In this document: in pieces, positions 35,801 through 41,800 of the stretch
Layout: every line of letters starts with the position of its first letter
Position numbering within the stretch: the first letter of the stretch is position 1
Source: Desulfatiglandales bacterium
GTDB lineage: Bacteria; Desulfobacterota; DSM-4660; Desulfatiglandales; Desulfatiglandaceae
Length of the DNA stretch: 64,000 nt
Direction of reading: 5' to 3'
Assembly (NCBI GenBank): GCA_963662465.1
Contig: OY759599.1
Span: forward strand, 416,001 to 480,000
Position numbers: made by a program

Positions 35801-38800
35801 TGTTCCGTTCGTAATTTATTTGCCAATTTAACAATTAGCTCCTGATATGTAAGCGAATGGAATTTAATACCATCGCTTTTTGTAACTTCGGTAAACTTGA
35901 GAACCTCATCCCGATGCTGTTTTCCCTGATCACCAAAAACGTCGTACCAAAGGTACAACAAACGGAAGCCAGCCTTTCCGAACTGCTTTTTTAGCCCAAG
36001 GATATGTTTCACAAGTTGGGCAGGGTGTAAATGAAGAAATTCATGATCATCGGGGGATATGCCCCCTGCGAAACGCAATAAGTTTGGAATGTCTGCCCAA
36101 GTATCATCGAGGCAAAGGTACTTTGCTTTGAGTCCGCCATGTTTATATACACCATATGCTTCAGAAAATTTGCATTCAATTGCGAACCTCTTAATTTTTG
36201 CTGATGGTGCATTGTGGATGACTACGTCAATATTTGGATGATAACCAAATTTGTCATTGATGGGATATTTTTCCTCAAAATATAAATTTCTTGATACCTG
36301 TGAACCCACACGGCAAAGGCCACACTGAGCTGCAATCACCGGAGTCGCGTTTATTGATTTCCAATATTGAAAAACATTGACCCCCAGCGCTGATGACGAA
36401 TGAACAGCCTGCATTTTGCCAGGAAATTCCGCTGCACCCAGTTCGCCACCATCCCCAGCCGCAAATGACTTTTGGACGTCAGCTAATAGTGGCTGAAAGA
36501 GGTTCTGATTCAACTCGCAAGTATAAGCAAGACGTCCTCGCTTGCCCTTGCTTCCGGTAAGCTTAATGCCGGAATTTATTGCCCATGCCGTTTGTTTCGA
36601 TAAGATGTACTCGTATCCGTTCATTATTTTCACCGACTCCGAACCAATGATTATACAGTTTTTTTTGTCATCAAATATCCGTTCCCGCATGTTATCCGAC
36701 AAAATCGAACCAATCTCCCTCTGAAATCTATATTCTGTAAATTATTCGATGGAAAAACGCAAGGGCAATATTTTTATATTCTGCGAAATATTTAATTAGT
36801 GATTCTCATTAGGGACTTGGCTTTCGCTCTCGTTCATACGTTCTAATGTGGGAATAGTTTTGGGACGCTCCGCGTCCTGCGGCAAACTCGAAAAACACTT
36901 GTTTAAATTGGGTATATTCATGATTTAGGACACAGATCGTTCAGAGGTGGGTTCCAACATAGAGCATTTGAACAGGATATGGAGATCGTAATTCCAAAAT
37001 GAGAATTGCTAATGTCCGGTTTTTTCTCTGAGGCTCATTATGATTTGCCGGTTGAAAGCCGGCATGAAATTATTATTGACAAAGATAAATGGCATGGCGT
37101 ATGCATTCCGTATATTGTGCGTATTTGTAATATTGAACATCTAATAGGAGGGCATATCATGATTCCAGTTCCGACAGAATCAATTATAAATTGCGGCAAT
37201 TCCGGCATCCTTCAAGAAGACTGTGAAGTAGTTTACACTTTCTTGTTACGCTTGGGGCTCCTCGTTCCCACGCTCTGCGTGGGAACGCACTTTGGACGCT
37301 CTGCGTCCATCAATCATTATGGGCAATAATAAAAGTCCTTTGCAAGGGCAAGGACGCAGAGCGTCAGGGACAATGTTCCCACGCAGAGCGTAGGAACGGT
37401 GCGCCTGTGAAGGCGCTTTATCAGTGCGGTGAAAGTCCGTACCGGAGTATGCCATAGCTCCGTAGCCGAAGGTAACTGCGTCGCCGCGAGGCGGGGTGGA
37501 GAGCAACCGGAGGCGAAAAGTCAGTCCGTAGGATGACGAACCCGATTCGGTGTCATGTGGTGGCGAGCCTACCGTTCCATGGTGAAGCCTGAAACTCACA
37601 GACCACGCTGTAATGGCGGTTAAAGCGATGGTTTGACGGCATGGTATGTTTGGGGTCGGAATGACTGGAAGGTAAAGCGAGATAAGCAGGGAGACCTGTC
37701 TCTTGGGGTGACAGGAGGCAGGAGTCAGAGTCCTCATAGTACCGTAGCGACAGAACGGTCCTGCTAACAAGGCTTACGGCGTGAGACCAGTACCCGCCGC
37801 CTGCGTCGGATACCGGGTTGTGAAAAGCGCGGATAGCAAAACCGTGCCGAGGGAAGGAGGATAGGAAGATAGATACGGAAAGGTCATATAGATGCAGCTA
37901 AATCAAGCAGTCTCGGCAGTGTTGGAAACAACTAAACGCGAGGCAGAAACCCGATGGGATTGGGTGGAAGCATCGGTGTGGACGGAACGTATGTTGGCAG
38001 CCCTGGGTAACGGGGTGAAAGGTGGTAAATGGTACAGTTTGATGGATAAGGTGTTCGCCTTGTCGACGCTGGAAGCGGCTTGGGGACGTGTCAAAGCCAA
38101 TAAAGGAGCGGCAGGGATAGACCGTATCAGCATAAAGCGCTTTAAGGAGCAGGCGGAGAAATACCTTGCCGAACTGCATGAAACCTTGAAAGCGGGAACG
38201 TACCGACCGGAAGCGGTAAAACGGGTATACATTCCGAAAAGCGACGGCAAACAACGCCCGCTGGGGATACCCACGGTCAAAGACCGGGTAGTGCAGGCAG
38301 CGGTTAAAATGGTTATGGAGCCCATATTCGAGCATGAATTTCTGCCGATGAGTTACGGCTTCAGGCCGCAAAGAGGTTGCAAGGACGCGTTGCGAGAAGT
38401 AGACGCGCTTATTAAGGAAGGCTACACCTTCATACTGGACGCCGACCTGAAAAGTTACTTTGATACGATTCCGCACGATAAGCTGATGCAACAAGTCGAA
38501 ATGCGCATCAGCGACGGCAAATTGCTCAATCTGATTCAAATGTTCCTGAAACAGGACGTGATGGACGGCTTGGAAAGATGGACACCGACGGGTGGTTCGC
38601 CACAAGGGGCGGTAGTCAGCCCCTTGCTTGCGAATATTTACCTGCATCCTCTTGACAGCCTGATCGCGGAATCAGGTATGCGGATGGTGCGTTACGCGGA
38701 CGACTTTGTTATCCTCAGCCGCAGTCAAACGGAAGCGGAGAATGCTTTGCAAAAGGTACGGGAGTGGGTACAGGCTAATGACCTGAGCTTACACCCGGAC

Positions 38801-41800
38801 AAGACGCATCTTGGCGACTGTCGACAAAAGGGTCAGGGATTTGAATTCCTGGGATACCGGTTTGAGGCAGGAAAGCGCTGGATACGCAGTAAAAGCCGTA
38901 AAGCCCTTCGTGATAAAATCCGGGAAGAGACCCGGCGCAAACGTAGCGGAAGTATGGAAAGCATCATTGATGATCTGAACCCCATGCTCGAAGGCTGGTT
39001 TGGTTACTTCAAACACGCCTACCGCACTGAGTTTGCGGCGGTGGATAAGTTTGTCCGCCGACGCTTACGCGCCGTATTATTGCGTCGTAACAAACGCAAG
39101 GGCTGGGGCAAAAGCCTTGAAGTCCACCGCCGCTGGCCGAATGCCTACTTCGCGAAAATCGGGCTTTTCACTATGCATGAGGCCCGGTTAGCAGCGTGCC
39201 GATCCCGATGAGGAAACTATCGACCGGAGAGCCGTGTGCGGGAGAACCGCATGCACGGTTCGGAGGGAGGGGAGAGCCAAGAGGCTCTTTCCTACCCCTA
39301 TAGCCCACAAAAAAATCAAAGTGTAAACTACAAAATGAAGGATGTCGCAATTCTTATTCGGCAACGTCATGCTGACAGACGCGACATTTCCGTGAACCTC
39401 TGAATAGCGGTTCGCCGCAGGAAGGGCAGTGGTATCGTTCGCATTCAGCCCGTGCCCATTCCACACTCCCTTTTTGCTCCCCATATTCAGCCACTTTGGC
39501 GCGCCATAAGGGAATTGCCCGCTTTGCAACCCTTACGCCTATGGCATATCCAAAATTTTCCACCAGCGTACATGGCCATTCATCACATTGATGGCAGGAA
39601 TAGTAACCTTTTGATTTTACGCAACTTCTTATTTTGCACTGTTGACAATATCTATAACGCTTTTTCGGAGGGTCCGGTTGCATGCATCCATAGCATTCTG
39701 TTTCTTCAGGTCTGGTTCCGTAAACGCTACCCATGACGGCCTTTAATTTTTCATTTTTGTCTCTTGTCGCAATGTAGATGCCGCACGCACCGCAATAAAG
39801 CCCGCATGGCGCCATTAAATCTCTATTTTGGATCTCTTTTTCAGTCCATCCTTTCATGTCGTTATCCCCCTGTATTAAAGAAGCTTGCCATATGAATACT
39901 GATGATGTCTTTCACTGCTTGTGACTGAAAAAATGGTCGGCATTCCGTTGTTCCTGATTGTTCTTTTGTATATGGGATGACGGGAAATCTTTTTTGATAT
40001 TTTTCGGTCACAATTAGCACTATGATTTGGTCTTACTGGTGGAGAAAGGGTAGCATGGCAATATCGATAAGCAGAGACATTGGAAAAAATGGTTTGGGAA
40101 GGTGGATCAAATGGAAACAACGGTGGAGCAACTGGTGATTGAAGCGGTGGCGGGCAGTCGTGAATCCCTTGAAGAAATCATTCGGCGTATTCAAGGAAAG
40201 GTGTATGGTCTGGCGTTGCGAATGCTGTTCCATCCGGCGGATGCCGAGGATGCAACCCAGGAAATTCTGATCAAGGTGATTACCCATCTCAAAAGTTTTC
40301 GCTTTGAAGGACCCTTCAACGCCTGGGCCATGAAAATTGCGGCCAACCACCTTCGGTCCGTTCGCAGGGGGCGCGTGGAAAAAAAAGAATTTACCATGGA
40401 AAAGGCCCAAGGAATTATCGATCGCACCGAGGCCATGGGCTGGTTCTCCGATCTTCCGGAAGCGCCTGAGCCCTTGATGGAGGTGGAGATGCGGTCCGTC
40501 TGCACCCAGGCGTTGCTTCTAGCCCTGGATCGCGATCACCGGATGGCCTTTATTTTGGGGGTGGTCATGGATGTTACGAGCAGTGAAGGGGCATTTATCC
40601 TGAGCATTAACCCCGCTGCATACCGTAAGCGTCTTTCCCGCGCGCGCCACAGGGTCACTGATTTTCTGAGCAGAAATTGCGGACTGTTCGACGGCGCCAA
40701 TCCCTGTCGCTGTACCGCCGTTTTGAAAGGACACTTGAAACGAGGTTGGATTAATCCTCAAAAGCCTCTTTTTGCTGACGAAAACAGTGGTGATCTGGAA
40801 GGAAACGAGGTATTGGGCACTTATATGAAGGAGCTGGATGAACTGGGCCGGGTCTCCGCCCTTTACAAAGCCTCTGTTTTGGGTGAAGGGTCCTCCGACT
40901 TCTCGGGGCTGGTGAAGGAGTGGGTGGAAGCAGGAGAATATCGCGTTTTTTCCAAACTTCATTGAGATAGGGGTGATTTTCAGGAACTTGGCGGCCTCCC
41001 GGTGAGGCCGCACGATTATCTTTTTCCGCTCTACACCAGTTTGAGTTCTTTCAGGCCCTTTGTCATTAGTTCCGGCGGCGCCTTCAGGGACATTCCCTTG
41101 GCGCTTTTGATCTGCATGCCGCGCATCTTGAGATTTGTCAGGGTTTCCGTCATTTTCAGGGTCATGGCCATGGGATCCAGGATGGGTGCTCCTTCCAGTT
41201 CGAAAATACCTTTAACTGGAAAGATGGGGGAAATCAGGCCGCAGCCGGCGATGATGACTTCCGCCCCGTCGGCCAGACACTCCCGGGATATTTCCATGAA
41301 ATTATCGATAATTTGATTATAATTCCCCCCCATCAGATCCCCGATCATGCTTTCAAGGGGCAGGGTCATGGACCTTACCGGCTTATGTGAAACGGCGAAA
41401 GGCGCAAATCCCAGGTTGATCAGATGTTCGGTCATGAAAGATACCCACACCGGCTCGCTGGTCACCACGGCAAACTTCCGGCCCATCAGGGCGGCCATGT
41501 GCATGGTGGCTTCAGCGGCCCCCATCACGGGGATGGACAGCAGATTATTCCCCATTCGGACGCCGCAGTCAAAATAGCAGGCCCCGGATATCCCATCAAA
41601 CCCATCCTTTTCCGCCTTCAGCATGGCCTTGACGATTTCCACCTCATTGGGGCCCCTGAACCCCTCAAAGCTCATTAACGCCGGATCCTTGAGGCCTTCC
41701 GGGACATCCCGAATTACCACTTCCGTATTCTCATCTTTGGCGAGATTATAGCTTTGCATCAACAAATCATAATAGTTGCCGAAAACCGTCTCCGGCATGG

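What a model noticed while it worked through the whole genome (the two positions that open the first line are those of the whole stretch)
37399..39301. Group II intron family whose EBS1 targets the 3-prime end of a REP-like palindrome
A 1903-bp group II intron (439-aa RT) sits at 11 independent sites, each directly behind the same extragenic palindrome (GTTCCCACGC-loop-GTGGGAACG) and before A; a twelfth copy is stacked on another. Related introns elsewhere follow other REP-like palindromes with a matching change in the EBS1 loop, so this clade uses REP repeats as safe homing sites. It is distinct from the attC-targeting introns already listed.
Evidence so far: Junctions of all 13 5-prime ends: 11 behind the palindrome, 1 tandem, 1 broken copy elsewhere. 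The palindrome has 59 copies, none in the reversed genome; 10 of 26 strict oriented sites are occupied; several lie inside MITEs. Candidate EBS1 CGTTCC occurs once in domain I, unpaired in the fold, and pairs with GGAACG. All 5 distinct metagenome sites of relatives follow palindromes; the two with intact domain I have EBS1 TGGGAG facing CTCTCA/CTCCTA. Paper searches 61 and 63 listed IS-in-REP work but no REP-homing intron.
(Added by a program. Inside this text positions count along the whole contig: contig position 416,001 is position 1 of the stretch shown here. "Call 12" and the like, gene names such as g00115 and contig names such as C1 are that model's own, and its searches are not shown. 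The text may have been shortened before it was handed on; [...] marks where a part breaks off. The agent that wrote the report below was given it as the finding of a first reader that could run no searches.)

Follow-up and report, generated by a model that had tools for sequence, protein, structure and literature searches.

The report
Intron lineage homing behind REP hairpins
A mobile self-splicing intron has copied itself to 11 places in this bacterial genome, always at the foot of the same small repeated DNA hairpin, and its relatives in many phyla do the same at other repeated hairpins using a matching five-base RNA guide, a landing habit usually credited only to a different intron class.

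Summary
Confirmed and extended. The 1903-nt group II intron has 13 copies: 11 directly behind one REP hairpin family, one tandem, one frameshifted ectopic copy. It fills 11 of 42 hairpin+GGAAYG|A sites and none of 2204 other GGAAYG|A sites, mostly on the lagging-strand template (9/16 vs 2/26). Across relatives, EBS1 covaries with exon -1 to -5, EBS3 with +1, and no EBS2 is found. A hairpin loop lies 11-15 nt upstream in 54 of 72 sites against 16 of 1057 controls. Nine of 11 tested targets are multicopy repeats, and this REP flanks RAYT genes elsewhere. The protein clade lies outside class C and sister to a group that contains it; it holds an intron that Miura 2022 lists as Unclassified. It works like IIC but fails IIC membership. 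Miura 2022 already noted such types beside predicted terminators; I found no REP-targeting report. This scan noted similar introns on other DNA. Mobility and splicing are untested.

The parts
37263..37398 (.). REP doublet (REPIN-like): two inverted REP arms around a spacer; the intron sits at the outer foot of the right arm
   Evidence: folds as one long hairpin; one exact copy in the genome; 12 such doublets genome-wide
37374..37398 (+). target REP hairpin (5' exon); loop centre about 13 nt before the intron
37393..37398 (+). IBS1 (GGAACG), which is also the lower part of the hairpin's 3' arm; -1 to -5 covary with EBS1
37399..39301 (+). group II intron, 1903 nt, one of 13 copies
   Evidence: precise intron-free junction in a public run
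37448..37455 (+). alpha loop; pairs with alpha-prime
   Evidence: read by eye from alignment A1; position
37573..37578 (+). EBS1 (CGTTCC) in the loop of the Id3 stem
37613..37619 (+). alpha-prime in the terminal loop of its own stem-loop (IIE/IIF-type trait)
   Evidence: trait from PMC3753933
37649..37649 (+). EBS3 (U), pairs with the first base of the 3' exon
   Evidence: 35 of 36 introns with both ends
37892..39211 (+). intron-encoded RT/maturase, 439 aa, YADD, no En domain
39229..39261 (+). domain V with AGC triad and 5-nt loop
39262..39301 (+). domain VI and 3' end
39302..39302 (+). IBS3 (A), first base of the 3' exon
41954..41978 (+). second REP hairpin target in the window
41979..43881 (+). 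second copy of the intron (2 substitutions from the first)

Best explanation
This is a recently active, endonuclease-less group II intron from an unclassified lineage outside class C and sister to the group that holds it. It retrohomes into single-stranded DNA by reading shape plus a short code. Shown from sequence: a 5-bp EBS1 pairs with the last five bases before the site, EBS3 pairs with the next base, there is no EBS2, and a DNA hairpin has its loop about 11-15 nt upstream. Each family member's EBS1 is tuned to the 3' foot of a particular hairpin, most often a REP family. Inferred: the hairpin forms on the lagging-strand template at the fork; EBS1 displaces the lowest base pairs of the stem (here EBS1 equals the outer part of the 5' arm); and the remaining 5-7 bp cap sits in the protein/RNA cleft that IIC uses for its DNA stem and IIA/IIB fill with EBS2. 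RAYT-spread REPs give a renewable supply of intergenic sites. The tandem copy probably arose by re-homing at the preserved 5' junction with a U-G EBS3 wobble, and the ectopic copy by EBS1/EBS3 pairing alone.
For: Own genome: 11 of 42 hairpin+IBS1+A sites filled, 0 of 115 other oriented hairpin ends, 0 of 2204 IBS1+A sites outside the REP; 0 of 2133 IBS1+A sites without a 7-bp stem. The 65 and 40 matches to two GTAG-type repeat patterns hold no copy (all 13 copies placed). Lagging-template 9/16 vs leading 2/26, Fisher p=0.0009. Relatives: stem of 7 bp or more at 36 of 48 sites vs 3.7% of 1983 control windows; second set 20 of 22 (one site shared with the first set). Loop centre at -11 to -15 in 54 of 72 vs 16 of 1057. 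Watson-Crick covariation at -1 to -5 in 40-43 of 46 introns vs 13-16 when permuted; 28 different EBS1 5-mers; no EBS2 signal, and the consensus fold has helix where EBS2 would lie. Targets multicopy in 9 of 11 genomes tested with their own pattern. RAYT genes beside this REP. A precise empty allele of this site in a public run.
Against: No experiment on splicing or mobility; no spliced RNA seen. About 73 non-REP hairpins followed by IBS1+A in the genome are all empty, 25 of them copies of one other repeat (counted from the list), so a generic hairpin is not enough and REP-specific sequence reading by the protein is not excluded. 18 of 72 sites lack a 7-bp stem at the fixed distance. L081/L082 have only a bulged hairpin, L047's hairpin is single-copy and L011's pattern matched once. 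Repeat status of 9 further targets was not tested with their own pattern. One copy in the genome inserted without a hairpin. Permutation tests ignore relatedness among introns. Trees are quick IQ-TREE runs without bootstrap or AU test and lack E2 and g4-g6 references.
Confidence: 0.72

Rival explanations
1. Ordinary sequence-specific homing: the protein, or an unrecognised EBS2, reads the REP sequence as duplex DNA, and the hairpin is incidental because REPs happen to be palindromes.
For: In this genome only one repeat family is used, while about 73 other hairpin+IBS1+A sites are empty. Other IIE/IIF introns have EBS2 (PMC3753933).
Against: Across the clade the upstream sequences are unrelated but the loop position is fixed. 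No EBS2 covariation. Lagging-template bias points to single-stranded targets.
Confidence: 0.12
2. It is a divergent class C (IIC) or generic terminator-seeking intron, and REP hairpins are used simply as terminator look-alikes, as Miura 2022 implied for C, g6, U1 and U2.
For: Best solved-structure hits are IIC proteins; the tree joins it to class C at SH-aLRT 91; no EBS2; the neighbouring Bacillota clade follows hairpin+T-run terminators; Miura 2022 section 9.
Against: AGC triad with 5-nt DV loop, separate alpha-prime stem-loop, 5-bp EBS1, and boundaries that miss the IIC consensus. It forms its own clade (97-100). Only 2 of 48 sites were flagged with a T-run, and no terminator-like site lies at the window junction. 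EBS1 is retuned to each repeat.
Confidence: 0.09
3. Survivor bias: the intron inserts at many EBS1/EBS3-matching sites and selection keeps only the copies in intergenic REPs.
For: One ectopic copy exists at a 5/5 EBS1 match without a hairpin.
Against: 0 of 2204 non-REP perfect sites are used; copies differ by 1-4 substitutions, leaving little time for sorting; selection would not fix loop distance or strand.
Confidence: 0.05
4. Copies spread inside a mobile REPIN/MITE or by recombination between repeats, not by retrohoming.
For: Several filled sites lie in the same composite repeat.
Against: Flanks differ among most of the 11 sites. A precise empty allele of the window site exists with the REPIN in place. 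A 95-97% identical intron in another genus uses the same REP from the other strand.
Confidence: 0.02

Closest known systems
Class C (IIC) group II introns: terminator type (GsI-IIC, E.r. IIC; PDB 6ar1, 7uim) and IIC-attC
   Same: No En domain, no EBS2, EBS1+EBS3 only, DNA hairpin just 5' of the site, lagging-template bias; nearest solved proteins; sister position in the tree.
   Different: AGC triad with 5-nt DV loop, 5-bp EBS1 retuned per target, boundaries off the IIC consensus. IBS1 often lies inside the stem's 3' arm instead of after a spacer (E.r. target in PMC10190682). Targets are REP-type hairpins without a T-run.
'Unclassified' (U1/U2/U3) IEP types of Miura et al. 2022 (PMC8919778)
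   Same: The Paraburkholderia pBN3 intron (62% aa, in the same clade) is listed as Unclassified. The paper reports g6, U1 and U2 often right after predicted terminators, near class C, and lagging-strand biased.
   Different: The passages and section 9 that I read treat the hairpins as terminators, and name no REP, EBS1 programming, missing EBS2 or fixed spacing. Which of U1-U3 this is could not be read from the table.
Group IIE/IIF introns (Nagy et al. 2013, PMC3753933)
   Same: 5-nt DV loop; alpha-prime at the tip of its own stem-loop.
   Different: IIE/IIF keep a covarying EBS2. The protein does not group with E1 (Kl.pn.I5), g1, g2 or g3 references.
REP-targeting insertion sequences (ISPsy8, ISPa11, ISPpu9/10, ISRm19/22; PMC1525189)
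   Same: Use of REP repeats as dedicated multi-copy targets. The repeat here has the same two-hairpin layout as that paper's canonical P. syringae REP (compared by eye).
   Different: Those are DNA transposases, not an RNA-guided retroelement. The paper lists only 2 of 9 P. putida group II introns near REPs.

Membership tests
Group II intron (mobile, En-minus) | GUGYG...AY ends, DV/DVI, RT-maturase ORF in DIV, no target duplication | tested here: met
   exact empty junction
Group II intron (mobile, En-minus) | Self-splicing and retrohoming activity | not testable with these tools
   13 near-identical copies and an empty allele are indirect; no spliced RNA
Class C / IIC | DNA stem-loop immediately 5' of the insertion site | tested here: met
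Class C / IIC | No EBS2-IBS2 | tested here: met
Class C / IIC | Boundary consensus GUNYGCCNRGCAUGG and CCUACYCGAU (PMC4028801) | tested here: not met
   the class C pattern fits L097, L074, L258-L260; the query has GAAGG at the 5' end and CCCTAT at the 3' end
Class C / IIC | Shortened EBS1; short DV with CGC triad (triad feature recalled; seen in L259/L260) | tested here: not met
   five covarying EBS1 pairs; AGC triad, 33-nt DV
Class C / IIC | IEP inside the class C clade | tested here: not met
   separate clade, SH-aLRT 97-100, sister at 91; quick trees, no AU test
Class E / F (IIE, IIF) | 5-nt DV loop and alpha-prime at a stem-loop tip | tested here: met
Class E / F (IIE, IIF) | Covarying EBS2-IBS2 | tested here: not met
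Class E / F (IIE, IIF) | IEP groups with class E or F references | tested here: not met
   not with E1, g1, g2, g3; E2 and g4-g6 not available as references
Miura 2022 Unclassified (U1-U3) | IEP groups with an intron so labelled | tested here: met
   subtype not resolved
REP / REPIN (the target) | Multicopy extragenic palindrome, also in inverted doublets | tested here: met
   70-98 loci and 12 doublets; 28 of 105 genomes of the family
REP / REPIN (the target) | Flanks a RAYT gene | tested here: met
   2 of 79 metagenome loci, NF047646 above cut-off; not in this genome, where none of 30 Y1 matches is flanked
REP / REPIN (the target) | GTAG or CGTC tag (PMC3733652) | tested here: inconclusive
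   this repeat ends in CTCG/CTGG, not GTAG or CGTC; many relatives' targets do carry GTAG or CGTC ends (read by eye)

The most novel reading that the evidence does not exclude
A widespread, previously undefined group II intron class, with IIB-type ribozyme features but no EBS2, that measures a DNA hairpin at a fixed distance and invades its foot with a reprogrammable 5-base guide. It lives as a dedicated parasite of RAYT-driven REP populations across many phyla, and is a living intermediate between IIC shape recognition and IIA/IIB EBS2 recognition.
Probability: 0.55. Interest if true: 0.78.

Novelty: new variant of a known kind. Interest (0 to 1): 0.63.

Why it matters
A review lists three bacterial target modes (homing site, terminator, attC) and gives homing to all lineages but class C (PMC4424553, passages). 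The cryo-EM paper calls the DNA stem-loop motif exclusive to IIC and proposes that EBS2 evolved to mimic it (PMC10190682, passages). A non-IIC lineage that lacks EBS2 and measures a hairpin makes that evolutionary model testable. It also adds a fourth target niche and links two selfish-DNA systems, REP-RAYT and retro-introns. The natural series of 28 EBS1 variants gives a ready retargeting code.

Tried and rejected
EBS2 search: a window scan, a single-base scan and a flexible test of the variable segment (4.74 vs 4.85 permuted) found none; that segment is a helix strand. RAYT in the own genome: 30 Y1 matches, nearest REP 571 and 994 bp away, neither flanked. A possible second intron start at 1102409 is not one: no domain-I hit there. 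Expression: 3 of 22 runs were RNA, all with small shares; the one laid (X20) holds contigs of a roughly 94% relative that also begin in the REP, and shows no exon-exon joint, so splicing is untested. The joint 37256-39302 is explained by a REPIN-free paralogous flank at 688812. Contig depth ratios were not used as copy numbers. Promoter and terminator scans gave nothing above chance worth claiming. The careful tree did not finish. The profile search gave unnamed relatives only and was not used further. REP search in plasmids gave 3 weak hits. Simon et al. 2008 is not held. The Toro 2013 alignments are image files and the Abebe 2013 consensus figure is an unreadable .doc.
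Full report
Observation. The element at 37399-39301 is a complete group II intron with a 439-aa RT/maturase and no endonuclease domain. The genome holds 13 full-length copies: 11 directly behind a GTTCCCAYGC-loop-GYRTGGGAAYG hairpin and before A, one stacked on another copy, and one frameshifted copy at a non-hairpin site. Intact copies differ from the window copy by 1-4 substitutions. 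In one public run a contig carries this site without the intron, cut exactly at 37398/39302. It has 30 letters on the short side, one below the tool's bridging rule, and this junction is absent from the assembly. In another run a contig crosses the filled 3' junction. This supports the boundaries and recent movement.

Specificity in the genome. After removing the introns in silico there are 157 oriented hairpin ends. Of these, 42 end in GGAAYG and are followed by A; 11 of the 42 are filled and none of the other 115. None of the 2204 GGAAYG|A sites outside this repeat is filled. With a generic stem definition, 11 of 113 sites with a 7-bp stem and 0 of 2133 without are filled. The 102 empty stems include about 29 of this REP family and about 73 others, 25 of them one other repeat (my count), so any hairpin is not enough. 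By GC skew (origin near 5.77 Mb, terminus near 1.79 Mb), 9 of 16 sites on the lagging-strand template are filled against 2 of 26 on the other strand (Fisher p=0.0009).

The guide. A search of named genomes gave 80 loci. Loci without a locatable 5' end were dropped, leaving 48 distinct sites besides the window and one tandem. An unbiased scan of domain I against the 5' exon in 36 introns under 90% identity put intron base 175 (window 37573) at offset 0 on top (4.53 of 5 pairs vs 1.88 permuted). In 46 introns, positions 175-179 pair Watson-Crick with exon -1 to -5 in 40-43 cases against 13-16 permuted. All five pair in 39 of 50 rows and at least four in 47, with 28 different EBS1 5-mers; the sixth pairs in only 20. 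EBS3 is window 37649 (35 of 36). No EBS2 signal appears, and the consensus fold of 17 introns runs a covarying helix straight into the EBS1 stem. These permutations ignore kinship.

The hairpin. A stem of at least 7 bp ends 0-5 nt before the intron at 36 of 48 sites, against 3.7% of 1983 upstream windows and 2.2% of 960 shuffles. A second set from 401 genomes of the phylum (27 with a match, own genome included) gave 20 of 22 sites, and EBS1 matched in 11 of the 12 where it was held (one site repeats the first set). Over 72 distinct sites the loop centre lies 11-15 nt upstream in 54, against 16 of 1057 controls. Eighteen sites miss this test, several with 4-6 bp stems at the right distance.

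Are the hairpins REPs? Twenty host genomes were searched with four patterns. Of the 11 whose own site type was the pattern, 9 hold 8-184 matches and 2 hold one. Of the other 9, eight hold none and one holds seven, and their own hairpins were not counted. The repeat used here occurs in 28 of 105 genomes of the family and resembles the two-hairpin P. syringae REP (PMC1525189, supplement row seen; compared by eye). In 2 of 79 metagenome loci it lies beside a gene scoring above the cut-off for REP-associated tyrosine transposase, and in L141 inverted doublets flank the gene on both sides. No such gene is flanked by it in this genome. A 95-97% identical intron in another genus sits behind the same REP at two sites. 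Exceptions exist: the Cupriavidus and Paraburkholderia plasmid introns follow a bulged hairpin, the latter between recombinase genes.

Class. Domain V has an AGC triad and a 5-nt loop, and alpha-prime sits at a stem-loop tip; these are IIE/IIF traits in PMC3753933 (parts 1-2 of 7 and passages read). The ends miss the IIC consensus of PMC4028801 (passages). Two quick trees (79 and 42 rows, SH-aLRT only; duplicates left out) give a clade at 97-100 that excludes D, E1, g1, g2, g3 and consensus-checked class C introns. It is sister (91) to class C plus a Bacillota clade that follows hairpin-T-run terminators. The clade holds an intron listed as Unclassified in the supplement of Miura 2022.

Mechanism. 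Shown: EBS1/EBS3 pairing rules, no EBS2, fixed hairpin spacing, strand bias, repeat nature of most tested targets. Inferred by analogy with the IIC structure (PMC10190682, passages): reverse splicing into single-stranded DNA at the fork, with the hairpin cap in the cleft that IIA/IIB fill with EBS2. Here IBS1 is part of the stem, so EBS1 must open its foot. I did not test conservation of the stem-binding residues: the alignment ends before most of them.

What is in print. Searches for group II intron with REP, palindrome, RAYT, REPIN or hairpin terms listed no paper on REP-homing introns; these are listings, and most subscription papers are not held. PMC3733652 has no mention of introns (passages). 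PMC4424553, PMC8643678, PMC12584367 and PMC10190682 (passages) tie hairpin targeting to IIC. PMC7923331 (passages) speculates on a hairpin role for one IIB intron at attC. Miura 2022 (section 9 and passages) is real prior art: g6, U1 and U2 types often lie right after predicted terminators. Also seen: PMC3552965 (parts 1-3 of 4 and Table S2), PMC5894124 and PMC3522654 (passages, supplement rows), and two 2026 preprints (passages, nothing relevant). Simon 2008 was not held, and Miura's supplementary figures, which may show the U1/U2 split, were not seen. Earlier notes of this scan describe similar introns in other genomes; none matched this protein or place. My first reading was recorded before I saw them.

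Verdict. It works like a IIC intron but is not one. It is best filed as a new variant of a known kind: a hairpin-measuring, EBS1-retargeted lineage that mostly lands at REP repeats. The hairpin habit was partly anticipated by Miura 2022; I found the REP link, the missing EBS2 and the fixed spacing in none of the papers I could search.

Noticed in passing
window 32698-34967 (- strand): A second, unrelated group II intron (494-aa RT with RVT_N, Rfam D1D4-7).
   Followed up: partly
window 35019-36702 (- strand): Two small adjacent ORFs that look like a toxin-antitoxin pair (by recall, not searched) and a REase-ARP family nuclease gene (PF22558), a cassette-like defence neighbourhood.
   Followed up: no
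window 36640-37182: A roughly 545-bp stretch present in 5 more diverged copies (90-93%) in the genome; nature unknown.
   Followed up: no
G000:C1:688812-688904: A paralogue of the window flanks without the REPIN, suggesting the REP doublet itself was inserted into a smaller repeat.
   Followed up: partly
G000:C1:2868022-2869931: The ectopic intron copy sits in the first codons of a short ORF just behind a ribosome-binding site; 5/5 EBS1 match, no hairpin, frameshifted RT.
   Followed up: partly
G000:C1:406401, 2784434 and 7094626: Short Y1 transposase genes flanked by other repeat families (GTAG-type; and the hairpin that introns L041, L042 and L058 target), so the genome holds other probable REP-RAYT systems that this intron does not use.
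   Followed up: partly
L056, L057, L067 and related Bacillota loci: A neighbouring clade with AGC domain V that inserts after hairpin plus T-run terminators.
   Followed up: partly
L048:2478-5067: A tandem of a full and a 742-nt ORF-less copy; its EBS3 is C, which pairs with the G of an intron already in place.
   Followed up: partly
L081, L082: Clade members on Burkholderiaceae plasmids insert behind a bulged hairpin; L082 lies among tyrosine recombinase genes, possibly a switch of target to an integrative element end.
   Followed up: partly
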